NCBI GenBank assembly: GCA_025656505.1
Contig: JAHXHR010000003.1
Span: 1,051-65,050, forward strand
DNA: 64,000 bases
Origin: Candidatus Thiodiazotropha sp. (ex Epidulcina cf. delphinae)
GTDB taxonomy: Bacteria; Pseudomonadota; Gammaproteobacteria; Chromatiales; Chromatiaceae
Reading direction: 5' to 3'
The position numbers and the translations under genes are program-made. This document shows positions 8,074 through 37,165 of this stretch, piece after piece (position 1 is the first letter of the stretch; the number at the start of each line of letters is the position of its first letter). The notes under the pieces were generated by a model that saw only the letters and a program-made list of their open reading frames with translations, was not told where the DNA came from and did no database searches.

Positions 8074-8139
8074 GTTTGCAGTAACCAATGGGGTCTAGTG
8101 AGTGAAGTGATTGTTATCAAATGACGCTATAACCCCCCC

Positions 8140-8788: not shown

Positions 8789-8815
8789 GTCAGACCACCA
8801 TTGGACTCCCGGGCC

Positions 8816-9646
8816 ATGAAGAGACCGACACTCCTGTTGCTCGATAACGGCTCCAGCCGCGCCGAGTCGGCACGCTACCTACGACGCTTGGCCGATGAAC
8901 TGAGCCATGTCAGCGGTCAGACCGTCTATCCCGTTTCCCTACAGCATGCCGATAAAATACCCACTGACATGCTCGACGGCAGAGCGGCGGATACATTCGC
9001 GCCTTTCCTGCGACAAAAATTAACCGGCGGCATACGGGAATTCCTGGCAGTGCCGCTATTCTTCGGTGTCGGCCGAGCCCTCACCTCATTCATCCCCGAC
9101 CAGGTGAAATCGCTTCAAGCGGAGTTCGGGGCGTTCACCCTGCGACTAACCGATGTACTCTACCCCCTCCCCGCCGGTGAACCCCGGCTGGCGGGGATCC
9201 TCTGTGATCAGGTTTCCGCTATCCTCCAGGAGACACCTTTACCGCGCGTGATTCTGGTAGACCACGGTTCTCCGACTCCATCCGTGACAGAGGTACGCAG
9301 ACGTGTAGCCGGGGACATGCGCCGCATTCTGCCGCCCGGAGTCGGTTTGGAAGAGGCTGTGATGGAGCGGCGCAACAGCCGTGAGTACGATTTTAACGGA
9401 GCGCTATTGGAACCGTTACTGGAACGCACCGTTCCAGCCGTCAACGACAAACCCGTCGCCCTCTCGCTGCTGTTTCTCTCCCCCGGCCGTCATGCAGGCC
9501 GCAACGGCGACATCGTAAGGATCTGCGCCGACCTCGAGCAACGCCATCCAGGATTGAAAATCCACATCAGCCGTCTGGTGGGTGACCACCCCGGACTTGT
9601 CGACATCCTCTATGATCGATTGAAGACAGGCCTTAGAATAGCATGA
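8816..9646 (+). CDS. CbiX-like sirohydrochlorin chelatase (two-domain)
   Basis: ORF trimmed to ATG 8816 (MKRPTLLLLDNGS...). The second half carries VILVDHGSP and LLFLSPGRHAG motifs typical of CbiX. Confidence 0.65.
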   Translation: MKRPTLLLLDNGSSRAESARYLRRLADELSHVSGQTVYPVSLQHADKIPTDMLDGRAADTFAPFLRQKLTGGIREFLAVPLFFGVGRALTSFIPDQVKSLQAEFGAFTLRLTDVLYPLPAGEPRLAGILCDQVSAILQETPLPRVILVDHGSPTPSVTEVRRRVAGDMRRILPPGVGLEEAVMERRNSREYDFNGALLEPLLERTVPAVNDKPVALSLLFLSPGRHAGRNGDIVRICADLEQRHPGLKIHISRLVGDHPGLVDILYDRLKTGLRIA

Positions 9647-9695
9647 CGATTCCGCCGTTCATTCACAGGTATCCATAGACTATTAACCCGGCGAC

Positions 9696-9862
9696 CTAGG
9701 GGGCGTTCTCAATCATCGTTCGCGGCGTGATTCCGGCCCTTTTCCGCGCTGGCGGCGTTGCGATTCGTTGCAATAGAATGACTATTACGCCTCATCGCGC
9801 CTTGCCGGCACGAAAAATGACTCAGAATCACGCTCACTCAGCTAATTGAGAACGCCCCCTAA
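9696..9862. mobile_element. MITE-C copy 1 (167 bp, TIR CTAGGGGGCGTTCTCAAT)
   Basis: Near-identical to 14322-14488 (inverted) and 45819-45986. Terminal inverted repeats are visible. Nested inside hairpin arms 9681-9695 / 9866-9880. Confidence 0.9.
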
Positions 9863-20080: not shown

Positions 20081-21385
20081 TCAAAAACCTTTTAACCGGA
20101 GCGTACTCTGGACCTGATTCCGCATCCTTGCCGGCACGCCTGCTTGTTCGGCAAATAGCTTCCAGCGAGAGACCGTTTCCAGCACCTCACCGACAATGGC
20201 CTTGGCCCGGCTGCGTTTCATCGAGGCCGCTTTGGCGCAAGCCTTGAAATCATCCATCGTAAATTCATCCCGTTTACCGTTCAGGGTCATCTGATGCGTT
20301 GCCGTCCAACTCCCTTCAGGATTGAAGCTATAGGTCATATCGAAAGCGGGTGACAGCGACCATTTCCCGGATTTATCCATCAGAAAGGCGATGTTCTTGA
20401 CATGGTCGTCCTGGTTGCGCGCAATGACATTAAATGCGATACGGCGAAATTGTTCCTCGATCGCCTGCATCGGCAAACCCAGTCGACGCATCACCAACAG
20501 TGCCTGTTCATAGCTATAGGCGCCCGCCATATTGAAGTCATAGTGCGCCAATGCGCACAGTGACTGCATATGCAGCTTTTCACCACCGCCGAGACGATCG
20601 AAGCGCCGGGTCATGAAATGGCGCCGGCCACCCTCCTCGAACAGCCGGCACGCATTGATAGCGATGCCACAATGCTTTGCCATCCGGTAGTAGGCGTATT
20701 CAATGACGCCGTAATCCTGCGGGTCGTCCAACTCCTTGTCCCGGTTCCCCCTTACTCCGTCAAATTTCAACAGCCAGTACTCAAAGCCCTCCCCTGCCGA
20801 CACCTGACCGGAGCGGACCTCATTGGTGAGCGGATTCCAGGCAATGGCCGCCTTTGCCCGGGCGCCGCCCGCCGATGTGCCGACCCGCAGGATATCGGTG
20901 AGCGCCTGCTCCTTATCGGTGTCGGCAAAGGATGCCTGCAATCGATTCCGGTGGCTAAGCACCCGTGACGCCAACTCAACCAGCTTGTCGATCGCTATTT
21001 GACTCGACTGCCCGGCCCTGGGACCGGTCACAGGCGCAAACTCCAGCGCCCCCATGCCCCTTCTGCCCGTATAACAGAGACGCTCCACGGCATTGAAACT
21101 GTGGCTCGACCTGCCTTGTGTGGCCAGCCAAGCATCGATCAAGGCATTCCCGAACCTGTCGGGCAACGCATCCGCCAATAGTCCCGGCAACCCGTGGAAG
21201 GTCTCACGGGATAGTTCGGGAAAGCTGTAGACACGATTCGACAACGGCATGGTAAGCGGGGCGATCTCGATACCGCTTTGGGCAAACGCCTGATCGTATT
21301 CAAACAGTGCCACATCATCACCATCACCCAACGACACCGCACCGATGGTCCGCCCCCATAGCCGGACCTCGGCAACCCTGCTCAT
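20081..21385 (-). CDS. hipA: type II toxin HipA-family Ser/Thr kinase
   Basis: 434 aa. HipA N-terminal coupling region RVAEVRLWGRTIGAVS. Catalytic loop IARNQDDHVKNIAFL. 4-nt overlap with hipB. Confidence 0.85.
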   Translation of the reverse strand: MSRVAEVRLWGRTIGAVSLGDGDDVALFEYDQAFAQSGIEIAPLTMPLSNRVYSFPELSRETFHGLPGLLADALPDRFGNALIDAWLATQGRSSHSFNAVERLCYTGRRGMGALEFAPVTGPRAGQSSQIAIDKLVELASRVLSHRNRLQASFADTDKEQALTDILRVGTSAGGARAKAAIAWNPLTNEVRSGQVSAGEGFEYWLLKFDGVRGNRDKELDDPQDYGVIEYAYYRMAKHCGIAINACRLFEEGGRRHFMTRRFDRLGGGEKLHMQSLCALAHYDFNMAGAYSYEQALLVMRRLGLPMQAIEEQFRRIAFNVIARNQDDHVKNIAFLMDKSGKWSLSPAFDMTYSFNPEGSWTATHQMTLNGKRDEFTMDDFKACAKAASMKRSRAKAIVGEVLETVSRWKLFAEQAGVPARMRNQVQSTLRLKGF

Positions 21386-22164: not shown

Positions 22165-22911
22165 TCAGCCACCACCTTTTTTCCTAAAGTGACGAAAAAG
22201 TCCATACCGCCAAGGGCGCATCGCCAAAACCACGCTCTTGCCATCTCGCTCCCGCAAAGGCAAAGCCGCATCGTCACTGGAGAGTTCATCGAATTCCCGG
22301 GCTAGATGCTCCATTTTGCGCTGAAATACGGCAACCGAACTCGCAGCCAACATGCCATTGAGGACGATAAGCCGCTCACTGGCCTGATCGAACTTGGAAC
22401 TAAAAAAGTCCGATTGCAGTTTCTGTAAAAAGAAGCGCTGGATGGGGCCGTTTTCCCGCCATTTAAAGCCGGGGGCCACCAATAGCTTGACCCGGTTTTT
22501 CGGCAATAACTCGATCATCTTCAGCCGATCCAGCCTGGCCAGGTGTTTTATACAACGCACTTCAGCGATAGCAAAGTAGTCGATGATCTCAGCCAGGGTC
22601 CAGCGATTTAGCGCACAGACAGCCACCAGCAGCAGTTCCAGGTCGGCGACGATCTCCTTTTCCTGCTCCAATGACAACCCTGAGATCGGCGCACAAGCAT
22701 CCTCATTCATCATCTGCACCAAGTCGGAGATTTCGATATCGATCATCTGACATATCTTATCCAGCCGCTGGAGGGAGAAACTCTTCTGCGAGAAGAGGCG
22801 CTTAACACTGGCTTCCGAGAGATTCAGCATGCGCGCCGTATCGGCATAGGTGAGGCCATGGGCCTTGAGCGCCTTCTTCAACGCCTCGATCAGTTGGGTG
22901 GTCTGAGTCAT
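22165..22911 (-). CDS. XRE-family HTH transcriptional regulator with uncharacterised C-terminal domain
   Basis: 248 aa. HTH LTYADTARMLNLSEASVKRLFSQ. Divergent from the lplT-aas fusion gene. Confidence 0.7.
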   Translation of the reverse strand: MTQTTQLIEALKKALKAHGLTYADTARMLNLSEASVKRLFSQKSFSLQRLDKICQMIDIEISDLVQMMNEDACAPISGLSLEQEKEIVADLELLLVAVCALNRWTLAEIIDYFAIAEVRCIKHLARLDRLKMIELLPKNRVKLLVAPGFKWRENGPIQRFFLQKLQSDFFSSKFDQASERLIVLNGMLAASSVAVFQRKMEHLAREFDELSSDDAALPLRERDGKSVVLAMRPWRYGLFRHFRKKGGG

Positions 22912-27798: not shown

Positions 27799-27858
27799 TC
27801 AATGCATGCTGGAGCGGTCGATAATGCCAATCAGAAACACAGCCTGACACAGGCGACA

Positions 27859-28305
27859 TCAAGCCGGCTGCATAACCAGCTTCGCCTCATTGGCTATTTC
27901 CACTGCAAGCATCTTTTGCTTGTCCTTCTCTGATGGCCAATTCACAATATTCGCGTGTAAAGGGTGTGGTGCAGTTTCCAGAACAATCTCCAGACCCGAT
28001 GCTGTGATCACTGCCGCTGCGGTATCTCCTCTCGCACGGAGAGTTCGTTTACTTGGCCCCGCCACATACTCCTGTCCTATATCCCAGATCTCTTTCTCAG
28101 AGAGGTTTGATATCCGATATACCGAAGCCTCACCATTTGGCGCAGGTAGATAAGCACCGTATTTCACAGTGTGGTTGGAGACGCTGAAATATCTTTTTGA
28201 AAGGATGTAGCGAGCGATCTGCTCACTGGACGCCACCTTATCCTGCTGCGGATTTTGGGCAGATCCTCGAAATATGGTCAATAAGCGCCTGAGGAATTGA
28301 ACCAT
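27859..28305 (-). CDS. cassette gene 4, hypothetical (125-148 aa)
   Basis: ATG 28305 has AGAGG 6 nt upstream but overlaps gene 3 by 68 nt. The alternative GTG 28236 sits 1 nt after the gene 3 stop with AGGA upstream. Motifs SVYRISNLSEKEIW, RARGD, HPLHANIVNWPSEKDKQKMLAVEIA. No family recognised. Confidence 0.6.
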   Translation of the reverse strand: MVQFLRRLLTIFRGSAQNPQQDKVASSEQIARYILSKRYFSVSNHTVKYGAYLPAPNGEASVYRISNLSEKEIWDIGQEYVAGPSKRTLRARGDTAAAVITASGLEIVLETAPHPLHANIVNWPSEKDKQKMLAVEIANEAKLVMQPA

Positions 28306-28747
28306 CGAACACCTCTGTTCCATGTGCCTTGTTACCCGTCCCCAGAAGACCGGCATAGGTTATACGATTTGTACCGTTTACACTCGCAGCAAGCACCCGG
28401 TTCTTTCCATAATTCCACTCAAACCCAATGTCGCCACTTGGTTCAGGCACAATTCCGGGTACTGGTAACCATGATGGTAATGCATTAAGAAATCGCACTG
28501 CCTCATCATATGTTGCCTGCGAAACCGGAAGCGCACCGTATCCATCCCAGTTATCTTCATAACATTCTTGATAGGTCTCTCTGAGTTCATCAAGCGTATC
28601 GCCGAGATAGCCCCATGTAACCGACTTACGCAGACGTATCAGCGAGTCTTCATATAATTTTTGAAGTTTCAGAGAGGCTTCACTCGATCCCGTACTATAG
28701 GCATGGACAGGGAAGGTGAATCGATCATGAATTGCAACTGCCGTCAT
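28238..28747 (-). CDS. cassette gene 3, hypothetical (169 aa)
   Basis: ATGA overlap with gene 2. Motif EDNWDGYGALPV...VPEPSGDIGFEW. No family recognised. Confidence 0.65.
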   Translation of the reverse strand: MTAVAIHDRFTFPVHAYSTGSSEASLKLQKLYEDSLIRLRKSVTWGYLGDTLDELRETYQECYEDNWDGYGALPVSQATYDEAVRFLNALPSWLPVPGIVPEPSGDIGFEWNYGKNRVLAASVNGTNRITYAGLLGTGNKAHGTEVFDGSIPQALIDHISRICPKSAAG

Positions 28748-29481
28748 TGGAAAAGCTCTGCTGCTTTCTCGGTTATACTCTCAAAAAACACCGTATTCTT
28801 GAAATTTCTCAATTGATCGAGACAACACCAAAACTCCTCATCCTGCGGATCAAATTGTTTTGTGATGAAGACCTCAATATCCAGCACAATCGGTGCATAA
28901 TTCCCATGCACACCTTCCAGAGCCTGCGTCAGGATACCACGGGATTCGATCGTTGGATCACTAATCTCTATCCGGGTCAGAAAACTGCTTAGCTCTTGGT
29001 TCAGCCCTTCCGGGATGGTTGGCGGTGCCGTCAGATACTCTTCGAGTTCCGTATTTAAAGGAAGTTTCAATACATTTATATACCGTGCGCCTACACGCGT
29101 AATCGGATCAGGCGAAACTGAAGCAGCATAGACCTCCCATAAGCGAACTGCCTCCTCTTTCATCTCATCCCAACTCCCGTAGGGCTCTAACTGGCTGAAC
29201 GTGAACCCATCCACCCGGAACTGGGCGACACGGCGCCGGTCTTCAGAAGTATATCGATAACCGACCATACTTTGACCTATGGTGACCTTGGTCGGTTGAC
29301 CCTCATCACTGTGTAATCCGAATTCCCCACGTTGCAGAGTTTCATGCTTCGGATACTGACCGGCAATCTGCGCATACTTCGAATTCAACGTTTCCGTTGT
29401 AACCTTCTCAGGCAAGGCAACCTGAATATCGATCAGCGCTTCCTTAATGGGTGCATGTGATAGATGCCTCTTTTCAATCAT
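28744..29481 (-). CDS. cassette gene 2, hypothetical (245 aa, TIGR04255-like?)
   Basis: ATGA overlap with gene 1. The N-terminus ...HAPIKEALIDIQV and the length recall the sporadically distributed TIGR04255 family. This is memory-based and unverified. Confidence 0.65.
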   Translation of the reverse strand: MIEKRHLSHAPIKEALIDIQVALPEKVTTETLNSKYAQIAGQYPKHETLQRGEFGLHSDEGQPTKVTIGQSMVGYRYTSEDRRRVAQFRVDGFTFSQLEPYGSWDEMKEEAVRLWEVYAASVSPDPITRVGARYINVLKLPLNTELEEYLTAPPTIPEGLNQELSSFLTRIEISDPTIESRGILTQALEGVHGNYAPIVLDIEVFITKQFDPQDEEFWCCLDQLRNFKNTVFFESITEKAAELFQ

Positions 29482-29696
29482 TGATTTTTCCCATCGATTG
29501 CTTTTCGCAAGCTAATGCCATTATTGCGTAATTGCTCCTGGTTTTCCCAGATCCAGGTACGAATCACCCAGGAACACACCTCCGCCTTCGTGGCGCCGTG
29601 AATTCCGACGCCAACCATGTCAGCCAGGAGCCGGTCTGTGGTTTCGTCCACCGTCAGTTGAAGCTTAACTGTATTTACACTATTGCGACGAGCCAC
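29478..29696 (-). CDS. cassette gene 1, ribbon-helix-helix-like small regulator/antitoxin candidate (72 aa)
   Basis: GTG start at 29696. Beta-alpha-alpha pattern VKLQLTVDE / TTDRLLADMV / ATKAEVCSWVIRTWIWE. Palindromic sites lie directly upstream. Confidence 0.55.
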   Translation of the reverse strand: MARRNSVNTVKLQLTVDETTDRLLADMVGVGIHGATKAEVCSWVIRTWIWENQEQLRNNGISLRKAIDGKNQ

Positions 29697-29718
29697 AACA
29701 ACCCCACTATCCGCCCAT

Positions 29719-29764
29719 AATAGAATCTTAAAACAATCTAATAAGATTCTATTAAGATATCTTA
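29719..29764. promoter_or_regulatory. operator-like palindromes built from TAAGAT/ATCTTA half-sites
   Basis: Perfect 12-bp inverted repeat AATAGAATCTTA (29719-29730) / TAAGATTCTATT (29742-29753). Adjacent perfect palindrome TAAGATATCTTA (29753-29764). All lie 23-68 nt upstream of the RHH gene start. Confidence 0.6.
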
Positions 29765-29795
29765 GTTATATCAAACAAGACGTTCAGAGATCGGC

Positions 29796-30986
29796 TCAAG
29801 GCCGCAGATAGTAGGCGAACAACCCTGGGTTGCACTGCTGCAAGCGCTTTCTCAACGTCATCACATCGGCATCGACTCGCTTCGTGGCTGCTGCCTGCAC
29901 CAGTTCAGCGACTACCTGGAACTCCTCTGGCAGATCGATATCATCGAAACAACGTTCGGTCGCCAACCTCCTCGCCAAACCGGGATGATCGATGAGGAGC
30001 CAGGCGGGAAAATCACTATCCGGTAGTTCCGGGTCCAACTCGAGAAAACGCCGCCAACTGCGCTGCCACTCGGGCTCGGCCTCGCTGCCGATGGGCGTCG
30101 CCTGTTCGGGAAAGCGCCAACACAGCAGGAACCAGCCGGTCAATGCCTGCATATCCAGATGCAGGCGGCCGCAGGCGCAGGCATACCGGCGCAACAGCAG
30201 CGGCTGTTCCCGCCAGCGTGACGCCGCCTCGACACTCGCTTTTACCTGCCGCCAATCCTCTGCCTGCAACAAGGTGTAGCTGCCGTGCAGTTCCGGTTTG
30301 CGTGGATCGAATGCGACCTGAGCCAGCGCCTGCGACAGGCGCTGCCACTGCGGCGCCAGAAAATGACGGGCGGAAGCGCCCAATATCTCCTCCGCCAGGG
30401 GACGCAGCTCCTGTTGCAGGTAGTGCAGTTCCCCCGCAATGTCATCGACTGGCGCCCCCCGGTTGACAGACGCCACCAGATGCTCAAACCCGCCCAGTTG
30501 ATGATGACCGGGGTCGACCTCGATCAGCCGTTCAAGCAGTCGCCCGGCTTCTGCCTCATCCCGCTGGAGCAGCGCCTGGGTAATGCCGTTCGCCAGGATC
30601 ACGCCAGGAGACTCCATCAACAGATCCATTTGCGGCGCGTCGTCACCTTTACGGTAGCCGGTTTGAAAGCAGTTGTGCGGACCGCTCATCGGGCTAAAAC
30701 GCAGTCCTTTTCCCTGCCCTGCCCCCCAACTGAGGTAACGCTGGGGTTCCGGCGTCAGACCCAGCGCCCTGGCATAGGCCTCGGCCTGCTGCATCATTTC
30801 ATGGCTCTGCTCGGGATCACCGAACAGCAAATCCTCAAGATAGTCACACTGCCCTTCGCGCCAAGCCTCGTAATCGGCGTACAACAGCCTGCCCTCGACC
30901 AGCAGCAGCTCAAGGGGAAGGTAGACGCCCTGCTCGAACAGCAGCCGGTCCACGACCTCACGGATCCGTCTCTCGCTCTGATTCAT
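29796..30986 (-). CDS. hypothetical protein (396 aa) downstream of the SNF2 helicase
   Basis: ATG 30986 lies 14 nt after the helicase stop. Leu/Glu/Arg-rich, no motif recognised. Confidence 0.6.
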   Translation of the reverse strand: MNQSERRIREVVDRLLFEQGVYLPLELLLVEGRLLYADYEAWREGQCDYLEDLLFGDPEQSHEMMQQAEAYARALGLTPEPQRYLSWGAGQGKGLRFSPMSGPHNCFQTGYRKGDDAPQMDLLMESPGVILANGITQALLQRDEAEAGRLLERLIEVDPGHHQLGGFEHLVASVNRGAPVDDIAGELHYLQQELRPLAEEILGASARHFLAPQWQRLSQALAQVAFDPRKPELHGSYTLLQAEDWRQVKASVEAASRWREQPLLLRRYACACGRLHLDMQALTGWFLLCWRFPEQATPIGSEAEPEWQRSWRRFLELDPELPDSDFPAWLLIDHPGLARRLATERCFDDIDLPEEFQVVAELVQAAATKRVDADVMTLRKRLQQCNPGLFAYYLRP

Positions 30987-30987
30987 G

Positions 30988-31009
30988 CTAGTGTAGGACA
31001 CTACACTAG
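30988..31009. repeat. 22-bp palindrome CTAGTGTAG-N4-CTACACTAG (PAL-F copy 2)
   Basis: Perfect arms. Contains the helicase TAG stop (31001-31003) and ends 2 nt from the next ATG. Confidence 0.85.
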
Positions 31010-34000
31010 CGGCTCGAACAGTGTTTCCAGATCCCCATCGGTCCAAGCCCCCTGCATCCCGCCATTAGGATCAAAGAGGCTGTCGGCAAGGGCCTGCTTT
31101 CGCTGCTGCATGGCCTGCATCTTCTCCTCGACCGTACCCGCCGTGATCAGCTTGTAGACGAACACCGGGTTGTCCTGGCCGATCCGATGGGCCCGATCAG
31201 TCGCCTGCCGTTCCACCGCCGGATTCCACCAGGGATCATAGTGGATGACGGTATCGGCCGCAGTAAGATTGAGGCCCACCCCGCCGGCTTTGAGACTGAT
31301 CAGAAACAGCGGCGCCCGGCCTGCCTGAAAGCGCTCGACCGGGGTGGCGCGATCGCGGGTGCGGCCGGTCAGTTTGACATAGCCGATGCCTGCTTCGCCC
31401 ACCGCCTCCTCGATCAGTTTCAGCATTCCGGTAAATTGCGAGAACAGCAGGATGCGTCGTCCCTCCTCGACCATCTCCGGCAACAGATCCATCAACAACG
31501 CCAATTTGGCCGACTGTTTGACCTTGCCGGCACTCTCCAATTTAACCAGACGCGGGTCGCAACAGACCTGGCGCAGCTTCAGCAAGGCATCGAGGACAAT
31601 GATATGGCTGCGCTCCATCCCCTGGTCCGCCACCGCCTTACGCACCTTGGCATGCATCGCAAGCCGGATACTCTCGTACAGGTCGCGCTGCGCACCGGCC
31701 AATTCAACGCCTTGCACTATCTCCGTCTTCGGCGGTAAATCCCTGGCGACTTGCTGCTTGGTGCGTCTCAGCATGAAGGGACGCACCCGCTGTGCAAGCC
31801 GCAGAGCGACCGCTTCGTCGGCGTGTTTCTCTATCGGATGCTGCAGCACCCGAGCGAACTGTTTGGCGCTCCCCAACAGGCCCGGCAACAGGAAATCGAA
31901 CAGCGACCACAATTCACCCAGGTGATTCTCCAGGGGTGTCCCGGTCAGGCAAAGACGATGGCGCGCCTCCAGTTGGCGCACTAGGCGGCCGGCGCGGGTC
32001 TTCGGGTTCTTGATGACCTGGGCCTCATCCAGGATCAACAGGTGGTAAGGGTGCTGCAACAGCACCGCCTGATCACGCACCAGCAGGGGATAGGTGGTCA
32101 ATACCAGATCGTAATCCGCAAGGCTATTGAAATGCCTGCTTCGCTTAGGGCCGTGCAGGGTCAATACCCGCAACCCAGGTGCAAACCGGGCGGCTTCTCG
32201 CCGCCAATTGACCATCAGACTGGTCGGCGCCACCACCAGGCTGGGCCTGTCCATACGGCCCTGCGCCTTCTCGATCAGAAAATGCGCCAGGGTCTGCACC
32301 GTTTTACCGAGACCCATGTCATCCGCCAACACACCGGCCAGTTCGTTCTCACGCAGAAACTGCAACCAGGACAGCCCCTGCCGTTGGTAGTCACGCAACC
32401 GGGTATTCAACGCCTCGGGGGGATCTACCTGTGGAATCCGCTCAACACCACGAAGCCGCTCCGCAAGCGCCCGTTGCTCCTCGGCGCCTGTCCATTGCAC
32501 CCGCAAAGCGGCGCCTTCATCATCCAACTCGGCCAGCCGGGCAAGCTGTATCCGACTAAGGCGCACTTGGCCATATTCGTCGAGCGCACTCTCACGATAG
32601 ATTTCAAACAGGGTGCTCAGAATGTTGCGCGCACGATCCATCGGCACCGGTAGCATCCGCCCATCCTCCAACGGCACAATCAACTGCTGCCTCGGATCAA
32701 GCTCCCACAGCCGATCTTGGCGGAATACCTTGGGGAAATCCTCAATCAACGCCAACAGTGACGGCAGCAGGTTGATGCGCTCACCCTCTACGACTACACC
32801 TAAGCTGGTGTCGAACCAGGCGTTGCCATCCTGGGGCCGGATCTCGCCGTACCATCCTTCTATCCGGGCCAGGCGGTAAGCGAAATCGTCGTCGAACTCG
32901 ATACGCCAATCCTGTTCCCGCAAGCGGGGCAGGGTATCGGCCTGAAAGTCGAACCAGACTTCTGGATCGCCGTCGACAACAAAGCGCTCGCCAGGCTCCT
33001 CATCGTCCCACCACTCGTCCCATACCAGCCCCGCCTCCACCAGCCGATCGGCGCACCGCGTTTCGAAATCCTGGTCCCGCCGAACCTTGATCACCCGCTC
33101 GCCGACCAGCACCTGGGATACCTGATCACCCCCGAGGCGAATGCCGGCATAGTCGAACGTCAAGCGCAGCAAATCATTATGCACGGTCTCGAGCCATGGA
33201 TCCTCGATATCCTCGGCGCAGAATCGCAGGCAGGGAACCGGCCGCACCGACGAACATGCTTCGATTTTAAATCGGCGCAACGGCGGCAACGCCACACCTG
33301 GATAGCGCTTTGCCAACGCGGCCTCGACCCGCTCCTCACCGCCTGGTTCGACACGGATCCTTTTAAACAGCTCAGCGAGCAATCCGCCCGGCAGATCCGT
33401 CTCCAGTTTTCCGCACTCTCCAGTGGTGGGGTCGATATACCAGGGACACCCCAGCAGAAACACTACAGGCGCTTCAGACCCGGTACGAAATGTTGAATAT
33501 TGATTGCCTGCTTCGTCGACCTCCCAAACCAGGCTGACGTCACGATCCGGACCCCGCCGCAGAATCAAATCGCTGTCACCCAGGAGACAGCGTCCTGTAT
33601 CCAACAGGCCTTCGAGCAGATCGTCACTACCGGCGTCATGCAGACAATGCATGCCTGTCTGCAGATCCGTCGTCACGGCATCCAATTCGGCCAACAACCC
33701 GCGATCGACGGGCTGCAGAAAACTTGGCGGTCTACCCCGCGCAGCCGAGCCAGGTCGGTATGTCCTCCGGCTACCGAATCCCCCGGATTTCAATAGCCGG
33801 GCGCAGGCCGTCTCAAGCATAATGCGACTATCCTGTTGCCGGTCGGGGTACAGTAGATAGAGCAGTCGCTGTTGCGCACGACTCGAATCGACATCTCTCT
33901 TGGCGATCCCATTGATACGCCGGGATCTGGATTGACCCTGGCCGCCAACCGCCCCATTCGACTCATTTTCCAATCCCGACAGCAGCACCGCCGCTACATG

Positions 34001-34246
34001 CTCGCAATTTCCGGGTTGAGAGCAACTGCATTCGCCATGGATCGATATCGACTCCTCGGCAGACCGCTCCACACGAACATAGACCCGGTAGTCACGCTGC
34101 CCGTTGCGCTTGACCAGTGAAGTGATGATCTCACCATTGCGGGTTACCGAAGGGGGCGCCACCTTCCCTCGGTCAAGGATACGACCAGCCTTATCCAAAA
34201 CACCGGGGCTGAATAGTTGCAGGAGATCACCGAGTGAATAGAGCAT
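31001..34246 (-). CDS. SNF2-family helicase with N-terminal SWIM zinc finger
   Basis: ATG at 34246. SWIM motif CSCSQPGNCEHVAAVL. SNF2 motifs LADDMGLGKTVQT, DEAQVIKN, LTGTPLEN, QATDRAHRIGQ. Confidence 0.9.
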   Translation of the reverse strand: MLYSLGDLLQLFSPGVLDKAGRILDRGKVAPPSVTRNGEIITSLVKRNGQRDYRVYVRVERSAEESISIHGECSCSQPGNCEHVAAVLLSGLENESNGAVGGQGQSRSRRINGIAKRDVDSSRAQQRLLYLLYPDRQQDSRIMLETACARLLKSGGFGSRRTYRPGSAARGRPPSFLQPVDRGLLAELDAVTTDLQTGMHCLHDAGSDDLLEGLLDTGRCLLGDSDLILRRGPDRDVSLVWEVDEAGNQYSTFRTGSEAPVVFLLGCPWYIDPTTGECGKLETDLPGGLLAELFKRIRVEPGGEERVEAALAKRYPGVALPPLRRFKIEACSSVRPVPCLRFCAEDIEDPWLETVHNDLLRLTFDYAGIRLGGDQVSQVLVGERVIKVRRDQDFETRCADRLVEAGLVWDEWWDDEEPGERFVVDGDPEVWFDFQADTLPRLREQDWRIEFDDDFAYRLARIEGWYGEIRPQDGNAWFDTSLGVVVEGERINLLPSLLALIEDFPKVFRQDRLWELDPRQQLIVPLEDGRMLPVPMDRARNILSTLFEIYRESALDEYGQVRLSRIQLARLAELDDEGAALRVQWTGAEEQRALAERLRGVERIPQVDPPEALNTRLRDYQRQGLSWLQFLRENELAGVLADDMGLGKTVQTLAHFLIEKAQGRMDRPSLVVAPTSLMVNWRREAARFAPGLRVLTLHGPKRSRHFNSLADYDLVLTTYPLLVRDQAVLLQHPYHLLILDEAQVIKNPKTRAGRLVRQLEARHRLCLTGTPLENHLGELWSLFDFLLPGLLGSAKQFARVLQHPIEKHADEAVALRLAQRVRPFMLRRTKQQVARDLPPKTEIVQGVELAGAQRDLYESIRLAMHAKVRKAVADQGMERSHIIVLDALLKLRQVCCDPRLVKLESAGKVKQSAKLALLMDLLPEMVEEGRRILLFSQFTGMLKLIEEAVGEAGIGYVKLTGRTRDRATPVERFQAGRAPLFLISLKAGGVGLNLTAADTVIHYDPWWNPAVERQATDRAHRIGQDNPVFVYKLITAGTVEEKMQAMQQRKQALADSLFDPNGGMQGAWTDGDLETLFEPLV

Positions 34247-34400
34247 GGCGAAAATATACCATGCCCATGGAACACAGACACCGTTCACGGACTCGTAGGC
34301 TCACAGTAAAGTAGAATCAAAACGCCCATATTCCCCCGCTAAAAAATTTAGCGTCACTGAATTGACAAAATAGGACATTTGTATTACTTTCGCTTAACAT

Positions 34401-34418
34401 TTAGGACAAACATCCTAA
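34401..34418. promoter_or_regulatory. inverted repeat TTAGGA-N6-TCCTAA (candidate TetR operator)
   Basis: Perfect 6-bp arms 54 nt upstream of the nemA ATG. TAGGACA recurs at 34371-34377. TTGACA at 34362-34367. Confidence 0.35.
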
Positions 34419-34471
34419 TTCAGGTTGTGCAAGCGTGTATTTCAAACGGACGAGTAACCAGGAGAGCGTCG

Positions 34472-35563
34472 ATGACCGCTGATTTGTTTTCCCCCATCAC
34501 CATGGGTGACATAAAACTTGCCAACCGCATGGTTATGGCGCCTATGACACGCAACCGCGCCGACGAACACAACGCCCCGCACGATTTAAATACCACTTAT
34601 TATCAGCAGCGGGCTACAGCGGGCTTAATTATCACTGAAGCTTCACAGGTTTCGGCGGAAGGCGTCGGTTATCCAGGTACACCGGGAATATACCGTGATG
34701 AGCAAGTCGCTGGTTGGCGGAAGATTACGGATGCAGTACATGCTGGGGGCGGGCATATTTTCATACAACTTTGGTATTGCGGGCGGATTTCACATCCCGA
34801 CCTATTACCTGATAACCGAACACCTGTTGCACCATCAGCGATTCGACCCGAAGGAGAAGCAACGACCCTTGAGGGTATGAAAGCATTCGTCACACCCCGC
34901 GCATTGGAAATGGATGAAATAGCCGGCATCATCTCCCAATACAAACATGCTGCCGCGATGGCAAAGCAAGCAGGGTTTGACGGCGTCGAAGTGCATGCTG
35001 CGAATGGATATTTAATCGATCAGTTCTTACGTGACGGCTCAAATCAACGTACTGATCAATACGGAGGCAGCGTGGAAAACCGCATGCGTATGCTGAATGA
35101 AGTGTTGGATGCAGTGATAGCGGTATGGCCGAGTAACCGTGTTGGAATACGCCTCACACCTGAGAACAGCTTTAACTCGATGTCGGATTCAAATCCGCTT
35201 GAACACTTTCGGTATTTCATTTCACACCTTAATGCACGAAACCTTGCCTACATACACATCTTAGAGGGCGACATGGTATCTAAATCGATTAATATCGATT
35301 ATCGCGTTTTACGTGACGGCTATAATGGGTTATATATGGCAAACAACGGCTATGATAAAGCACGCGCAGAAGCATCGCTCAGCAATGGAGATAGTGATTT
35401 TGTCGCATTCGGCATTCCATTCTTAGCCAATCCTGATCTGGTATACCGCTACCAGCATGACTTACCCTTAAATGACGCAAATTTTGACACCCTCTACGGT
35501 GGCGCTGAACAGGGGTATACCGACTATCCAATTCTTGAACAGACTATTACAGAACCGGGTTAA
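34472..35563 (+). CDS. nemA: Old Yellow Enzyme family NADH:flavin oxidoreductase (N-ethylmaleimide reductase-like)
   Basis: ATG 34472 after AGGAGA. MTADLFSPITMGDIKLANRMVMAPMTR..., HAANGYLIDQF, RTDQYGGSVENR, collinear with E. coli NemA. Confidence 0.85.
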   Translation: MTADLFSPITMGDIKLANRMVMAPMTRNRADEHNAPHDLNTTYYQQRATAGLIITEASQVSAEGVGYPGTPGIYRDEQVAGWRKITDAVHAGGGHIFIQLWYCGRISHPDLLPDNRTPVAPSAIRPEGEATTLEGMKAFVTPRALEMDEIAGIISQYKHAAAMAKQAGFDGVEVHAANGYLIDQFLRDGSNQRTDQYGGSVENRMRMLNEVLDAVIAVWPSNRVGIRLTPENSFNSMSDSNPLEHFRYFISHLNARNLAYIHILEGDMVSKSINIDYRVLRDGYNGLYMANNGYDKARAEASLSNGDSDFVAFGIPFLANPDLVYRYQHDLPLNDANFDTLYGGAEQGYTDYPILEQTITEPG

Positions 35564-35585
35564 GCGAAAAACCAGGGTTAATAAT

Positions 35586-36170
35586 ATGCGAAATAAAGGT
35601 GGAACACTAAGACTACGGATTATCGCCGCTGCAGATGAACTCTTTTATCAGCAAGGATATGAGAATACTTCATTTAGCGATATTGCGGATGTAGTTGGTA
35701 TATCACGTGGTAATTTTTATTATCACTTTAAAAGTAAAGATGAAATATTGGATGCCGTTATTGACGCCCGCATCACTCGTTTTAAAGAAATGCTGAACGA
35801 GTGGGATAAAAAAACAACCGACCCTAAACAGCGCCTCCATTATTACATTGACATGCAGTCACGAAACCAGGAAAAAATCATTTCACATGGCTGCCCCGTC
35901 GGCAGCCTATGTACAGAGCTTGCTAAAATCAGACATTTCATGCTGGTTGACGCGAATAAAATGTTTACCGTATTTCGTGATTGGCTGACCACCCAACTTG
36001 AACTGGTCGGCGTCAAAAAAAACGCCAAACAACTTTCCATGCATTTACTGGCTCGCGGGCAAGGCATTGCCACGGTATCAAACGCCTTTGAGGATAAAGC
36101 GTTTTTACATCAAGAAGTGACGCAATTAAAGCAATGGCTCGATGTTGAAATTCTTAAGGCAAGTCACTAA
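35586..36170 (+). CDS. TetR/AcrR-family transcriptional regulator
   Basis: ATG at 35586. HTH region AAADELFYQQGYENTSFSDIADVVGISRGNFYYHFKSKDEIL. Confidence 0.85.
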   Translation: MRNKGGTLRLRIIAAADELFYQQGYENTSFSDIADVVGISRGNFYYHFKSKDEILDAVIDARITRFKEMLNEWDKKTTDPKQRLHYYIDMQSRNQEKIISHGCPVGSLCTELAKIRHFMLVDANKMFTVFRDWLTTQLELVGVKKNAKQLSMHLLARGQGIATVSNAFEDKAFLHQEVTQLKQWLDVEILKASH

Positions 36171-36212
36171 TTTCCATTAACTGCATTTGACCACCTTCGA
36201 GGGAAAAAGCGA

Positions 36213-36860
36213 ATGAGCCTTTCAAAACAGACAAAGAAGTTAACGGAAGACTTTATCAGCAGCCAATCTGCTGAAAACCAGGGTATTATTCAGGGTGCAT
36301 TTACAACCATAAATGCGACTGATTTCGGCGCCAATGCCTTGCGTGAGGGCGATCAGGCAAAAAGCTTTCAGTTACCCAACAACAAGGGCGGCGAGACGGC
36401 ATTGGCGGACCTGTTGGCGCAAGGGCCTGTTGTCATCAGCTTTTACCGTGGCGGTTGGTGCCCCTATTGTAATTTAGAGTTCAAGGCGCTGAATGATATT
36501 TTACCCACGATAAATGAACTGGGCGCAAATCTTGTCGGCATATCGCCTGAACTACCTGATAACCCCATCAGCACTACTGAAAAACACCAACTGAAATTTG
36601 AAGTCCTAAGCGATGTCGGCAATCTGATCGCCCGCGAATATGGCGTGGTAATGGACGTGCCGGTTTCCATGCGGCCATTGTACCTGCAATGGGGTCTGGA
36701 TGTGCCCACTGCCAATGGCGATAACACCTGGGAGCTCCCTATACCTGCAACCTATGTTATCGATGGCGATGGGCAAGTTGTTTTTGCCTACATCAATAAA
36801 AACTATACCGAGAGATCAGAACCAAGCGAGATAGTACGAGCGCTGAAATCGATTGATTAA
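36213..36860 (+). CDS. AhpC/TSA (peroxiredoxin-like) thioredoxin-fold protein
   Basis: GPVVISFYRGGWCPYCNLEFKAL. Confidence 0.75.
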   Translation: MSLSKQTKKLTEDFISSQSAENQGIIQGAFTTINATDFGANALREGDQAKSFQLPNNKGGETALADLLAQGPVVISFYRGGWCPYCNLEFKALNDILPTINELGANLVGISPELPDNPISTTEKHQLKFEVLSDVGNLIAREYGVVMDVPVSMRPLYLQWGLDVPTANGDNTWELPIPATYVIDGDGQVVFAYINKNYTERSEPSEIVRALKSID

Positions 36861-36886
36861 CCCGACAACCAAATATGTCGGGTTAA
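36857..36886. terminator. 10-bp-stem hairpin between convergent genes
   Basis: TTAACCCGAC (36857-36866) pairs with GTCGGGTTAA (36877-36886). It contains the TAA stops of both flanking ORFs. The TTAACCCG(G/A)CAAC motif recurs at 9683, 46265 and in the MITE-D elements. Confidence 0.5.
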
Positions 36887-37165
36887 TAGCTAAACAGCTC
36901 ATCGATGGGGAACGGCCTGCGAATCCCGTAACCTTGAGCATAGTCGACTCCCAACGCCTGTAATCGATGCAGAATTTCACTATTTTCGACAAATTCGGCA
37001 ATCGTCTCCAAGCCCATGATATGGCCGATGCGGTTGATGGCGTCCACCATGGATTCATCGATGGTGCTTTCCACCATCTCCTTGATGAAGACGCCGTCTA
37101 TTTTCAAATACTCTACCGGTAGGTGCTTGAGATAGCCGAACGAGGAGAGACCGCTGCCGATATCG
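36883..37165 (-). pseudogene. 3' remnant of an EAL-domain (c-di-GMP phosphodiesterase) gene
   Basis: Translation ...DIGSGLSSFGYLKHLPVEYLKIDGVFIKE...VDYAQGYGIRRPFPIDE covers only the last third of an EAL domain. An in-frame stop lies at 37195-37197 and no upstream domain is present. Confidence 0.7.

What the first reader, a model, noticed from the sequence alone, without database searches (positions are those of the whole stretch)
27859..29770. AT-rich, tightly coupled four-gene operon (RHH-like regulator, TIGR04255-like protein, two unknowns): candidate undescribed TA/defence-type module
Four co-directional minus-strand genes are joined by ATGA stop/start overlaps at 29478-29481 and 28744-28747, and by an overlap or 1-nt junction at 28236-28305. 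Composition differs from the flanks: hand counts of single 60-nt lines give about 38% GC (28801) and 50% GC (29101) inside the cassette, versus about 70% in the neighbouring gene (30301). The first product is a 72-aa ribbon-helix-helix-like protein preceded by perfect palindromes. The other three (245, 169 and 125-148 aa) carry no catalytic motif I can name. Gene 2 recalls the sporadically distributed TIGR04255 family, gene 3 has NWDGYGA...GDIGFEW, and gene 4 has RARGD...HPLHANIVNWPSEKDKQKMLAVEIA. A small autoregulator with translationally coupled unknowns and foreign composition, next to an SNF2 helicase, is the architecture typical of TA, abortive-infection or defence cassettes. I cannot match it to any named system.
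Basis: partly seen in the sequence, partly recalled or inferred. Interest (0 to 1): 0.78.

Follow-up and report, generated by a model that had tools for sequence, protein, structure and literature searches.

The report
Uncharacterised mobile three-gene toxin-antitoxin-like module
The four-gene operon is real and its last three genes form a widespread, horizontally mobile module of proteins with no known function, most plausibly a three-part toxin-antitoxin or anti-phage cassette that nobody has described.

Summary
Four co-directional minus-strand genes (g1 29478-29696, g2 28744-29481, g3 28238-28747, g4 27859-28236) are joined by two ATGA overlaps and a 1-nt gap. They have their own promoter/operator and terminator. 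GC is 47.8% against 55.6% for the window.

The conserved unit is g2-g3-g4. It recurs colinearly in 65 of 80 reference-genome loci from many phyla, in 4 of 4 viral contigs and in a P2-like Ralstonia phage record. g1 is a regulator add-on of one gammaproteobacterial sub-clade with a conserved palindromic operator.

- g2 is a TIGR04255 protein with a duplicated sheet-plus-helix saddle model.
- g3 has no family; its core resembles the C-terminus of the untested PADLOC candidate PDC-M32A.
- g4 (at least 2,728 clusters) has a confident model with no match in PDB or BFVD.

Gene 1 is swappable: two unrelated families replace TIGR04255, and g3's N-terminal segment changes with it. An intact g4 almost never occurs without g3 and a gene 1, whereas g3 often survives alone.

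Best reading (about 0.4): a tripartite toxin-antitoxin/abortive-infection module that works like TAC systems. No named system matches. SNF2 adjacency is coincidental. Function is inferred, not shown.

The parts
29746..29774 (-). sigma-70-like promoter: -35 TTGATA (29774-29769), 17-nt spacer, -10 TAGAAT (29751-29746)
   Evidence: 10 of 12 consensus matches. This is a consensus match only; the number of such sites in the region is no higher than in shuffles. It lies about 50 nt upstream of the g1 start.
29718..29764 (.). operator-like palindrome cluster: TAAGATATCTTA (29753-29764), perfect 13-nt inverted repeat TAATAGAATCTTA / TAAGATTCTATTA (29718-29730 / 29742-29754), and near-palindrome AATCTTATTAGATT (29735-29748). 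It overlaps the -10 hexamer and the spacer.
   Evidence: The motif AATCT-N4-AGATT (most often AATCTAATTAGATT) lies within about 160 nt upstream of g1 homologues in 11 loci, and most other loci carry one-mismatch variants.
29478..29696 (-). g1: 72-aa putative ribbon-helix-helix-like autoregulator; a lineage-specific add-on
   Evidence: No Pfam, NCBIfam or PDB-sequence match. It is 61% identical to the L008 homologue. Homologues precede g2 in 17 other loci and co-occur with the palindromic operator. Among the 80 reference-genome loci it is found only in L008.
28744..29481 (-). g2 (gene 1 of the core module): 245-aa TIGR04255-family protein with a duplicated sheet-plus-helix saddle model
   Evidence: NCBIfam TIGR04255, 129.7 bits. 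AlphaFold model pLDDT 88.6. Foldseek: TBP at probability about 1 but TM 0.29-0.43, then McsB and phosphagen kinases. Invariant residues include E14, R129, R133, N136 and D201; D203, K228 and N229 are nearly invariant. No Pfam hit in any of 46 members.
28238..28747 (-). g3: 169-aa protein. The N-terminal segment (about residues 1-50, with TGSSE at 20-24) is specific to TIGR04255-type modules. The conserved core (about 62-160) carries NWDGYGA and GDIGFEW.
   Evidence: 92 homologues, none with a functional annotation. Invariant W67, D68, G69, Y70, A72, P97, G105, W111, G143. 24 of 29 members match the C-terminal part of PADLOC PDC-M32A. The N-terminus co-varies with gene 1.
27859..28236 (-). g4: 125-aa protein (GTG start 1 nt after the g3 stop); candidate effector/toxin with no recognisable fold relative
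   Evidence: Model pLDDT 95.7. No Foldseek hit at E <= 0.001 in PDB or BFVD. Invariant H94; nearly invariant E5, R9, P31, S38, V39, R41, G54, L82, W100, P101, A111. 2,728 representative clusters at E <= 0.001. A g3 core lies directly upstream in all 74 g4-anchored loci with upstream sequence.
27840..27866 (-). terminator-like hairpin (11-pair stem, T-rich tail) overlapping the g4 stop
   Evidence: This is a consensus scan only.

Best explanation
The core is an autonomous, horizontally mobile three-gene module, [gene 1]-g3-g4, that works like a tripartite toxin-antitoxin / abortive-infection system.

- g4, a small protein with an invariant His and conserved Glu, Arg, Ser and Arg, is the growth-arresting effector.
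- g3 is its cognate neutraliser. The conserved WDGYGA...FEW core goes with g4. The variable N-terminal peptide, which carries a G-x-S-[D/E] motif in TIGR04255-type modules, is the handle recognised by gene 1.
- Gene 1 (here the TIGR04255 protein g2) binds, stabilises or modifies that handle. It thereby sets whether g3 keeps g4 silent, and it is the likely point where a trigger such as phage infection is sensed.
- This parallels SecB-like chaperones and the ChAD element in TAC systems such as CmdTAC.
- In the window's sub-clade a small RHH-like protein (g1) represses the operon by binding AATCT-N4-AGATT palindromes that overlap the -10 hexamer.

Shown: gene structure, synteny, mobility, modular swapping, the N-terminal co-variation, the decay asymmetry, operator conservation, and the absence of any known family or fold for g4.

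Inferred: toxicity of g4, neutralisation by g3, the g2-peptide contact, and any anti-phage role.
For: Synteny and coupling:
- g2-g3-g4 are colinear in 65 of 80 reference-genome loci from many phyla, and g3-g4 in 11 more.
- The 4-nt g2/g3 overlap is the commonest junction (32 loci).
- The triad is complete in 4 of 4 IMG/VR loci, and a divergent triad sits in a P2-like Ralstonia phage record.

Mobility:
- GC and GC3 are depressed.
- Two Thiodiazotropha genomes share only the cassette.
- No neighbour recurs widely.

Dependence of g4:
- g4-anchored scan: a g3 core lies directly upstream in 74 of 74 loci with upstream sequence.
- Decay asymmetry: intact g3 lacks an intact g4 in 11 of 79 loci, while intact g4 lacks an intact g3 core in 1 of 70 (Fisher p = 0.0055). 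With g4 intact, gene 1 is intact in 63 of 66 g3-anchored loci. With g4 lost, gene 1 is intact in 2 of 11.
- One contig encodes a g3-g4 fusion.

Modularity:
- TIGR04255 is replaced by the unrelated families X2 and X1 (hhalign E = 0.13-0.52).
- Yet the g3 core and g4 stay as similar across module types (up to 55-61% identity) as within the TIGR04255 type.
- The g3 profile match starts at median position 12 in TIGR04255-type modules and 34 in X2-type modules.
- G-x-S-[D/E] occurs at a fixed position in 39 of 87 TIGR04255-type g3 proteins and 0 of 16 X-type ones (2.2 expected by shuffling; p = 4e-4).
- Distant TIGR04255 genes lead other cargo pairs, including a hypothetical gene plus a zeta toxin on a Vibrio plasmid.

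Context hints:
- Type I RM genes recur next to some loci.
- The g3 core is homologous to part of PDC-M32A, a candidate predicted from genes embedded in defence systems (Payne et al., bioRxiv 10.1101/2024.01.29.577857).
- The TAC precedent for chaperone-gated antitoxins in defence is PMC11618068 and PMC5105189.

g1 and its operator are co-conserved.
Against: - There is no experimental or homology evidence that g4 is toxic. It matches no known toxin family or fold.
- g3 has no DNA-binding or known antitoxin domain.
- g2 carries many invariant charged residues (E14, R129, R133, D201, D203). That pattern looks more like an enzyme or ligand site than a passive chaperone. Its fold did not retrieve SecB.
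- Neighbourhoods are mostly housekeeping genes, with RM or helicase genes in a minority of loci.
- Only 4 of 2.9 million viral contigs and 3 of 72,556 plasmids carry a g2 relative.
- The decay-asymmetry and motif statistics do not correct for relatedness among loci. Both anchored sets are the best-scoring 80 hits.
- The Ralstonia 'phage' record is marked UNVERIFIED_ORG. ORFs just after the triad look like PAAR/T6SS genes by eye (not scanned), so host DNA may be included.
Confidence: 0.4

Rival explanations
1. The roles are reversed. Gene 1 (the TIGR04255 protein) is the enzymatic effector: a nucleotide-, phosphate- or nucleic-acid-acting enzyme whose active site lies on the conserved polar face of its beta-sheet. 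g3 and g4 form the sensor/regulator pair that gates it. It is still a conflict or abortive-infection system.
For: - g2 has invariant or near-invariant E14, D18, Q87, R89, R129, R133, N136, D201, D203 and K228, located on predicted strands and a helix.
- Foldseek retrieves McsB and phosphagen-kinase catalytic domains at probability 0.97-0.99 as well as TBP.
- Effectors are often the swappable part of defence systems, and gene 1 is swapped.
- Gene 1 and g4 are lost together, so the asymmetry data cannot tell which of the two is harmful.
Against: - TM-scores to all enzymes are low (0.3-0.36).
- TIGR04255 also leads cassettes that already contain a bona fide toxin family (zeta). That fits an accessory role better.
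- The alternative gene-1 families X1 and X2 show no catalytic-looking motif that I can name.
- g4 also has an enzyme-like invariant residue set.
Confidence: 0.2
2. It is not a conflict system. The triad is a mobile accessory three-protein complex with a physiological role, for example a stress-response, small-molecule-binding or modification pathway. It is common in large-genome environmental bacteria and is simply unannotated.
For: - Flanking genes across 80 loci are mostly housekeeping (PEPCK, ALAD, HSP70, ATP synthase, Lon). Recognisable defence genes occur in a minority of loci.
- The window's flanks are mostly housekeeping.
- The module is very rare in viral contigs and plasmids.
- It matches no toxin, antitoxin or defence family.
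Against: - Distribution is patchy across more than a dozen phyla, composition is foreign, and insertion sites differ even within one genus.
- Non-orthologous displacement of gene 1 together with its matching peptide is typical of conflict systems.
- One-sided decay is typical of conflict systems.
- So are association with zeta toxin, VapC, type I RM, CRISPR and prophage contexts and homology of the g3 core to a defence-embedded candidate.
- No metabolic genes co-occur consistently.
Confidence: 0.15
3. It is a purely selfish addiction module. It is a true toxin-antitoxin-type cassette that stabilises itself or the DNA it sits in, with no anti-phage function.
For: - The architecture and asymmetry evidence is the same as for the best explanation.
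- The cassette stands alone among housekeeping genes in the window rather than in a defence island.
- It occurs on a mobilizable plasmid in a related form.
Against: - It cannot be separated from the best explanation with sequence data.
- Presence in a P2-like phage record, in viral contigs and next to type I RM leans towards defence.
- Many TA systems, including TAC systems, do defend against phage (PMC11618068).
Confidence: 0.15

Closest known systems
Tripartite toxin-antitoxin-chaperone (TAC) systems, e.g. M. tuberculosis HigBA-SecB(TA) and the antiphage CmdTAC (PMC5105189, PMC6377645, PMC11618068)
   Same: - Three translationally linked genes.
- A third protein is inferred to act on a short extension of the middle (antitoxin-like) protein.
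- That accessory protein combines with different downstream cargo pairs.
- The putative toxin is essentially never found without both partners.
   Different: - There is no SecB-like chaperone; gene 1 is TIGR04255 or the unrelated X1/X2 families.
- The co-varying extension is N-terminal, not the C-terminal ChAD element.
- Gene order is accessory, then antitoxin-like, then toxin-like.
- The toxin and antitoxin candidates belong to no known family.
- g2's invariant charged residues suggest catalysis or ligand binding rather than chaperoning.
PADLOC phage defence candidate PDC-M32 (Payne et al., bioRxiv 10.1101/2024.01.29.577857; untested two-gene candidate found by 'guilt by embedding')
   Same: - The g3 core (residues about 64-127) is homologous to positions about 269-332 of the 375-position PDC-M32A profile in 24 of 29 family members.
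- Orphan g3-like genes are embedded in type I RM loci (L035, L080).
   Different: - Only a sub-domain is shared. PDC-M32A is about twice as long as g3.
- None of the window's genes matched a PDC-M32B model; only g3 matched PDC-M32A.
- PDC-M32 has two genes and is itself uncharacterised.
TIGR04255 family (NCBIfam 'sporadically distributed' uncharacterised family)
   Same: g2 is a full-length member (129.7 bits, cut-off 30).
   Different: The family has no assigned function and no paper in the searched library mentions it. This work adds a fold model, conserved residues and an operon context. It does not add a function.
omega-epsilon-zeta and classical type II TA operons with an RHH autoregulator
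   Same: - A small RHH-like repressor with a palindromic operator over the promoter precedes the cargo genes in the window's sub-clade.
- A distant TIGR04255 gene on a Vibrio plasmid precedes a hypothetical gene and a zeta-toxin family gene.
   Different: - No zeta or epsilon homologue is in the window.
- The regulator is a separate, dispensable fourth gene that is absent from most modules.
- g3 lacks a DNA-binding domain.
TATA-box-binding-protein-like fold (TBP-domain superfamily) and the phosphagen-kinase / McsB catalytic domain
   Same: The g2 model is two repeats of a 4-5-stranded antiparallel sheet plus a long helix. Foldseek probability is 0.97-1.0 to both groups.
   Different: TM-scores are only 0.29-0.43 and rmsd is 8-10 A. 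There is no sequence similarity. The resemblance is topological and not evidence of DNA binding or kinase activity.

Membership tests
TIGR04255 family (g2) | Full-length match to the NCBIfam TIGR04255 HMM above its curated cut-off | tested here: met
   129.7 bits against a cut-off of 30, E = 1.6e-37, residues 7-244 on profile positions 2-251 of 252. NCBI names the identical protein 'TIGR04255 family protein'.
Ribbon-helix-helix (CopG/Arc/MetJ) regulators (g1) | Match to an RHH family HMM or to a solved RHH protein | tested here: not met
   No Pfam or NCBIfam family at E <= 1 apart from a spurious 0.091 hit. No PDB sequence hit at E <= 10.
Ribbon-helix-helix (CopG/Arc/MetJ) regulators (g1) | Strand, helix, G-x-[S/T/N] turn, helix pattern, plus a palindromic operator over its own promoter | tested here: inconclusive
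   The sequence pattern KLQLTVDE-TTDRLLADMV-GIHGAT-KAEVCSWVIRTW fits by eye. The palindrome AATCT-N4-AGATT is conserved upstream of g1 homologues and overlaps the -10 hexamer. No structure was predicted.
Type II toxin-antitoxin system | The toxin belongs to a known toxin family or fold | tested here: not met
   g4 has no Pfam, NCBIfam, PHROG or PADLOC hit, no PDB profile hit and no Foldseek hit in PDB or BFVD.
Type II toxin-antitoxin system | Adjacent, co-directional, tightly coupled small genes, where the toxin does not occur without the antitoxin | tested here: met
   The gap between g3 and g4 is 1 nt. g3 is upstream of g4 in 74 of 74 loci with upstream sequence. The decay asymmetry is 11 of 79 against 1 of 70.
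Type II toxin-antitoxin system | The toxin arrests growth and the antitoxin neutralises it by direct binding | not testable with these tools
   This needs expression and interaction experiments. The only hint is a single g3-g4 fusion.
TAC (toxin-antitoxin-chaperone) systems | A SecB-like chaperone is encoded in the operon | tested here: not met
   g2 has no Pfam hit in 46 members. Foldseek top hits are TBP and phosphagen kinases, and SecB is not among the 50 listed.
TAC (toxin-antitoxin-chaperone) systems | The antitoxin carries a chaperone-addiction extension specific to its chaperone | tested here: inconclusive
   An analogous feature exists: g3's N-terminal segment and its G-x-S-[D/E] motif co-vary with the gene-1 family. 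It is N-terminal rather than C-terminal, and binding is untested.
PADLOC PDC-M32 candidate system | Full-length matches to both PDC-M32A and PDC-M32B | tested here: not met
   Only g3 residues 64-127 match profile positions 269-332 of 375 of PDC-M32A (E = 2.2e-5; 24 of 29 members). No window gene matched a PDC-M32B model.
Any defence system modelled in PADLOC-DB v2.0.0 (includes BREX, Zorya, Dpd, retron and PD-T4 models seen in the outputs) | HMM matches of the component genes | tested here: not met
   g1, g2 and g4 have no hit at E <= 1, and g3 has only the partial PDC-M32A hit. Newer DefenseFinder or PADLOC releases could not be tested.
TBP-like fold (g2) | Structural superposition with TBP-domain proteins at a fold-level TM-score (about 0.5 or more) | tested here: inconclusive
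   Foldseek E = 7e-4 and probability 0.99-1.0, but TM is 0.29-0.43 and rmsd 8-10 A. The secondary-structure order fits a duplicated sheet-plus-helix.

The most novel reading that the evidence does not exclude
The triad is a categorically new, widespread prokaryotic immune or addiction system.

- g4 would be a toxin with a previously unseen fold and an E-R-S-R-H active site.
- The WDGYGA-domain protein g3 would be a general-purpose neutraliser that also appears in other candidate defence genes.
- TIGR04255 proteins would be a new class of peptide-recognising, possibly peptide-modifying, sensors built on a TBP-like or phosphagen-kinase-like saddle. They would read a short G-x-S-[D/E] N-terminal tag on interchangeable cargo modules (g3-g4, zeta toxin pairs and others).

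That would give the long-orphaned TIGR04255 family a function. It would also reveal a second, SecB-independent solution to 'accessory-protein-gated' toxin-antitoxin control.
Probability: 0.15. Interest if true: 0.85.

Novelty: new variant of a known kind. Interest (0 to 1): 0.62.

Why it matters
If the reading is right, it gives three large orphan protein families a testable role: TIGR04255, the WDGYGA-domain family, and a family of at least 2,728 clusters with no recognisable fold. It would add a tripartite toxin-antitoxin/defence architecture that is common in environmental phyla poorly covered by E. coli-centred defence screens, such as Planctomycetota, Nitrospirota, Desulfobacterota and symbiont Gammaproteobacteria.

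The swappable gene 1 with its co-varying N-terminal peptide makes a concrete prediction about how the parts contact each other, and that prediction can be tested directly. A toxin with a new fold and an unknown target would interest both mechanistic researchers and tool builders.

If the reading is wrong, the module is still one of the better-conserved operons of wholly unknown function.

Tried and rejected
- **Family scans.** Pfam, NCBIfam, PHROGs and PADLOC on all four proteins gave only TIGR04255 for g2 and a partial PDC-M32A / phrog_30544 hit for g3. Pfam scans of every member of the g4 and g2 alignments found no recurrent family.
- **PDB sequence searches.** Profile searches for g2, g3 and g4, and phmmer searches for g1 and g2, gave nothing significant. 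The weak S4-domain-like hit of the g4 N-terminus (E = 1.2) was rejected as noise.
- **Foldseek for g4.** No hit at E <= 0.001 in PDB or BFVD. The best TM was AvrPphF ORF2 at 0.40, with rmsd 12 A and probability 0.11. I treated an ADP-ribosyltransferase-like reading of g4 only as an unsupported lead.
- **CYTH/triphosphate-tunnel reading of g2.** I considered it because of the charged residues on strands. The only hit was Cet1 at E = 0.09 with TM 0.12, so I did not pursue it.
- **Remote homology of X1 and X2 to TIGR04255.** hhalign gave E = 0.13-0.52, so it is not supported.
- **HNH gene upstream of g3-g4 in L060.** It is separated by 115 nt, so I treated it as an unrelated neighbour and not as a module variant.
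- **Boundaries and RNAs.** No tRNA, no flanking direct repeats and no Rfam family at the cassette boundaries.
- **Defence-island hypothesis for the window.** Rejected, because the flanks are TamAB, acyl-ACP synthetase/acyltransferase, amidohydrolase, OYE reductase and ThiC.
- **SNF2 as part of the system.** Rejected, because the adjacency is not conserved.
- **Literature.** 'TIGR04255' appears in no paper. 'PDC-M32' appears only in a prophage survey and in the supplement of Payne et al., without functional detail.
- **Other searches.** tblastn of g3 against phage genomes found no match. The viral scan with the diverse g4 alignment failed for lack of a conserved stretch.


Full report
**1. What is in the window**

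- g1, 29478-29696 (GTG start, 72 aa)
- g2, 28744-29481 (245 aa)
- g3, 28238-28747 (169 aa)
- g4, 27859-28236 (125 aa)

g1/g2 and g2/g3 share ATGA stop/start overlaps. g4 starts at a GTG one base after g3's TAA. The 125-aa reading has three supports: the identical NCBI protein, an independent gene call, and the position at which conservation begins in homologues.

A sigma-70-like promoter lies about 50 nt upstream of g1: TTGATA, 17 nt, TAGAAT, 10 of 12 matches. A hairpin with a T-rich tail overlaps the g4 stop. The -10 hexamer lies inside a perfect 13-nt inverted repeat, and a 12-bp palindrome sits in the spacer.

The cassette is 47.8% GC against 55.6% for the window, in the lowest 3% of equal-sized windows. 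GC3 is 0.39-0.55 against 0.60-0.77 in the flanking genes. The window derives from a Candidatus Thiodiazotropha MAG, a lucinid-clam symbiont.

**2. The conserved unit is three genes, and it is mobile**

A scan of one genome per GTDB species with the g3 alignment found 144 relatives, of which 80 loci were fetched. By their record titles they include Gammaproteobacteria, Planctomycetota, Nitrospirota, Desulfobacterota, Verrucomicrobiota, Acidobacteriota, Binatia, Gemmatimonadota and Chloroflexota, plus one contig each binned as Thaumarchaeota and Akkermansia. Those two may be mis-binned.

Iterative profile searches on six-frame ORFs gave these counts:
- g2-g3-g4 colinear on one strand in 65 of 80 loci
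- g3-g4 in 11 more
- g3 alone in 3

The 4-nt g2/g3 overlap is the commonest junction, seen in 32 loci. No neighbouring gene recurs in more than 6 loci.

g1 occurs in only one of these 80 loci, another Thiodiazotropha MAG. That genome shares only the cassette with the window and has unrelated flanks.

All four IMG/VR contigs that encode a g2 relative carry the full triad. A P2-like Ralstonia phage record carries a divergent triad that keeps the WDG[YF]G, G-x-V-x-FEW, SV-x-R and P-x-HA-x-I motifs. That record is flagged UNVERIFIED_ORG, and ORFs just after the triad look like PAAR/T6SS genes by eye (not scanned), so it may include host DNA.

**3. The proteins**

*g2* is a bona fide TIGR04255 member, a family with no function and no mention in the searched literature.
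- Its AlphaFold model (pLDDT 88.6) is two repeats of a 4-5-stranded antiparallel sheet followed by a long helix.
- Foldseek gives TBP at probability about 1 but TM only 0.29-0.43, followed by McsB and phosphagen-kinase catalytic domains. I take this as topological resemblance only.
- Invariant or near-invariant E14, D18, Q87, R89, R129, R133, N136, D201, D203, K228 and N229 fall on predicted strands and a helix.
- From the alternation of residues along strands, I infer that many of them share one exposed sheet face, as in a ligand, metal or phosphate site. This is inference, because I could not inspect coordinates.

*g3* has 92 homologues, none with a functional annotation.
- It has an invariant core: NWDGY-A ... 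P ... G ... W.
- No Pfam family was found for the window protein. In 24 of 29 members the core matches the C-terminal third of PADLOC PDC-M32A.
- PDC-M32 is one of 145 untested candidates derived from genes embedded in BREX, DISARM or type I RM systems (Payne et al., bioRxiv 10.1101/2024.01.29.577857).

*g4* gave a very confident model (pLDDT 95.7).
- It has no Foldseek hit at E <= 0.001 in the PDB or BFVD, no PDB profile hit and no Pfam family in any of 54 members.
- H94 is invariant. E5, R9, S38, R41, W100 and P101 are nearly invariant.
- An exhaustive HMMER search of 1.84 billion representatives found 2,728 clusters at E <= 0.001. The top 150 are all standalone proteins of 96-191 aa.

**4. 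Modularity**

A g4-anchored scan of metagenome contigs found 431 relatives, of which 80 loci were fetched.
- A g3 core lies directly upstream of g4 in all 74 loci with any upstream sequence.
- In 17 loci TIGR04255 is missing. Each of these has another tightly coupled gene of 217-242 aa in its place: family X2 (18 members with the genome loci), family X1 (3 members) and one singleton.
- Neither X1 nor X2 is detectably related to TIGR04255 (hhalign E = 0.13-0.52).
- The g3 cores and g4 proteins of X-type modules are as close to those of TIGR04255-type modules (mean 37-40% identity, maximum 55-61%) as TIGR04255-type modules are to each other (39-43%). Gene 1 was therefore displaced, not slowly diverged.
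- g3's N-terminal segment changes with gene 1. The g3 profile match starts at median position 12 in TIGR04255-type modules (n = 96) and at 34 in X2-type modules (n = 19).
- The motif G-x-S-[D/E] sits 47 residues before WDG in 39 of 87 TIGR04255-type proteins (2.2 expected by shuffling) and in 0 of 16 X-type proteins (Fisher p = 4e-4). Relatedness among loci is not corrected for.

In the other direction, distant TIGR04255 genes lead other cargo pairs:
- a hypothetical gene plus a zeta-toxin family gene on a Vibrio plasmid
- two unrelated hypothetical genes on a mobilizable Crinalium plasmid
- a Thermus gene that lies among CopG-VapC, a DNA methylase and Cas6

By eye, the second genes in these loci also begin MT... 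and carry a G-x-S-like motif.

**5. Dependence pattern**

- In g3-anchored loci, an intact g3 lacks an intact g4 in 11 of 79 loci. In 9 of those 11, gene 1 is also gone.
- In g4-anchored loci, an intact g4 lacks an intact g3 core in 1 of 70 (Fisher p = 0.0055).
- With g4 intact, gene 1 is intact in 63 of 66 g3-anchored loci.
- One metagenome contig encodes an in-frame g3-g4 fusion. It is a single occurrence and could be an assembly artefact.

So g3 can persist alone, while g4 is essentially never kept without g3 and a gene 1. A toxin and its neutraliser would leave this pattern. It does not tell us whether g4 or gene 1 is the harmful partner.

**6. g1**

g1 has no HMM or PDB match, so 'RHH' rests on its strand-helix-turn-helix pattern. 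Homologues precede g2 in 17 other loci of the closest gammaproteobacterial sub-clade. Eleven loci carry AATCT-N4-AGATT, most often AATCTAATTAGATT and often twice, within about 160 nt upstream. Most of the rest carry one-mismatch variants. In the window the equivalent site, AATCTTATTAGATT (29735-29748), overlaps the -10 hexamer. This is good comparative evidence for an autoregulatory repressor that was added to the module in one lineage.

**7. Context**

The window's flanks are TamA/TamB, an acyl-ACP synthetase/acyltransferase, an amidohydrolase, a 416-aa unknown protein overlapping an SNF2 helicase, an OYE reductase, TetR, AhpC and ThiC. This is not a defence island. The SNF2 gene has native composition, and its adjacency to the cassette is not conserved.

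Across the 80 genome loci, the two nearest upstream ORFs are a mix of housekeeping genes and a minority of defence-type genes. Out of 142 ORFs, ResIII occurs in 5, HsdR-type SWI2_SNF2 in 3, and N6_Mtase, Methylase_S, PLDc_2 and NTP_transf_2 in 2 each. Type I RM subunits were the most recurrent neighbours. Some orphan g3-like genes are embedded inside type I RM loci. Overall, the context evidence for defence is modest.

**8. Interpretation**

I commit, at about 0.4, to a tripartite toxin-antitoxin/abortive-infection module that works like TAC systems (PMC5105189, PMC6377645, PMC11618068):
- g4 is the effector.
- The g3 core is its neutraliser.
- g3's N-terminal peptide is the handle for gene 1.
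- Gene 1 stabilises, senses or modifies that handle.
- g1 is a lineage-specific repressor.

It is not a member of the TAC family. There is no SecB-like protein, the extension is N-terminal and the toxin family is unknown.

The rivals are: gene 1 as the enzymatic effector with g3-g4 as regulators (0.2); a non-conflict accessory complex (0.15); and a purely selfish addiction module (0.15).

No current evidence names a biochemical activity for any of the three proteins.

**9. Novelty and score**

No named system matches in the libraries available (PADLOC-DB 2.0.0 of 2023; Pfam of 2025; NCBIfam of 2026). Newer DefenseFinder or PADLOC releases could not be checked.

I classify it as a new variant of a known kind: a tripartite TA/defence-type cassette built from uncharacterised families. 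There is about a 0.15 chance that it proves categorically new, with a new toxin fold and a new peptide-gated control logic based on TIGR04255.

Interest is 0.62. It is strongly conserved, large, wholly dark and now mechanistically testable. But its function is inferred, and many untested candidate systems of this general type already exist.

Noticed in passing
window 20081-21385 (-) and 22165-22911 (-): A HipA-like kinase toxin gene (Pfam HipA_C E = 1.8e-52, plus Couple_hipA) has an HTH_26/HTH_3 protein gene upstream on the same strand. This is a separate HipBA-like toxin-antitoxin locus about 6.5 kb from the cassette. The roughly 780-nt gap between the two genes was not examined.
   Followed up: partly
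window 34300-36900: A second low-GC block holds an OYE-type FMN oxidoreductase, a TetR regulator and an AhpC/redoxin protein. GC is 0.42-0.48 and GC3 0.42-0.52, against 0.60-0.77 in surrounding genes. It is probably another horizontally acquired block and unrelated to the cassette.
   Followed up: partly
window 29796-34288 (-): The SNF2 helicase gene (31001-34288) overlaps by 46 nt a 416-aa protein gene (29796-31046) with no family hit. The helicase scores 774 bits on the PADLOC DpdE model PDLC02842. None of the other window ORFs scanned looks like a dpd gene, and its composition is native, so this is probably generic SNF2 similarity.
   Followed up: partly
L035 7827-8566; L045 1992-2572; L080 7926-8393: These are orphan g3-like genes without g2 or g4. 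In L035 the gene lies between type I RM HsdS and an HsdR-like gene. In L080 it follows HsdM. In L035 and L045 an overlapping 73-79-aa ORF follows it, which may be a different two-gene module that uses the same WDGYGA domain.
   Followed up: partly
L037 (Binatia MAG) 2737-9727: Four g3-like ORFs lie within 11 kb. Only one belongs to a complete triad, which suggests local expansion or several modules built on this domain.
   Followed up: no
L170 1875-2753 (protein P0030): An in-frame g3-g4 fusion protein of 292 aa occurs on a single JGI metagenome contig, preceded by g1 and g2 homologues. It is either a Rosetta-stone fusion or a one-base assembly error.
   Followed up: partly
L084 (Vibrio parahaemolyticus plasmid CP063527) 158-2105: A distant TIGR04255 gene is followed by a hypothetical gene and a zeta-toxin family gene. 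An alternative start at 883 would abut the TIGR04255 stop codon. The TIGR04255 family may therefore partner with different toxin-antitoxin-like pairs.
   Followed up: partly
L017 2693-3349, L028 1582-2223, L067 1690-2313 and 15 metagenome loci (alignment A10): A new family of about 215-aa proteins ('X2'; motifs FNPAIxTPDFLN, PYTPLxAVGVNIN, NYNYEA) replaces TIGR04255 as the first gene of the module. It has no NCBIfam hit and no detectable homology to TIGR04255.
   Followed up: partly
L018 ('Thaumarchaeota archaeon' MAG) and L081 ('Akkermansia muciniphila' MAG): Triads, partly degraded in L018, sit on contigs binned to an archaeon and to a gut Akkermansia. They are either real long-range transfers or binning errors.
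   Followed up: no
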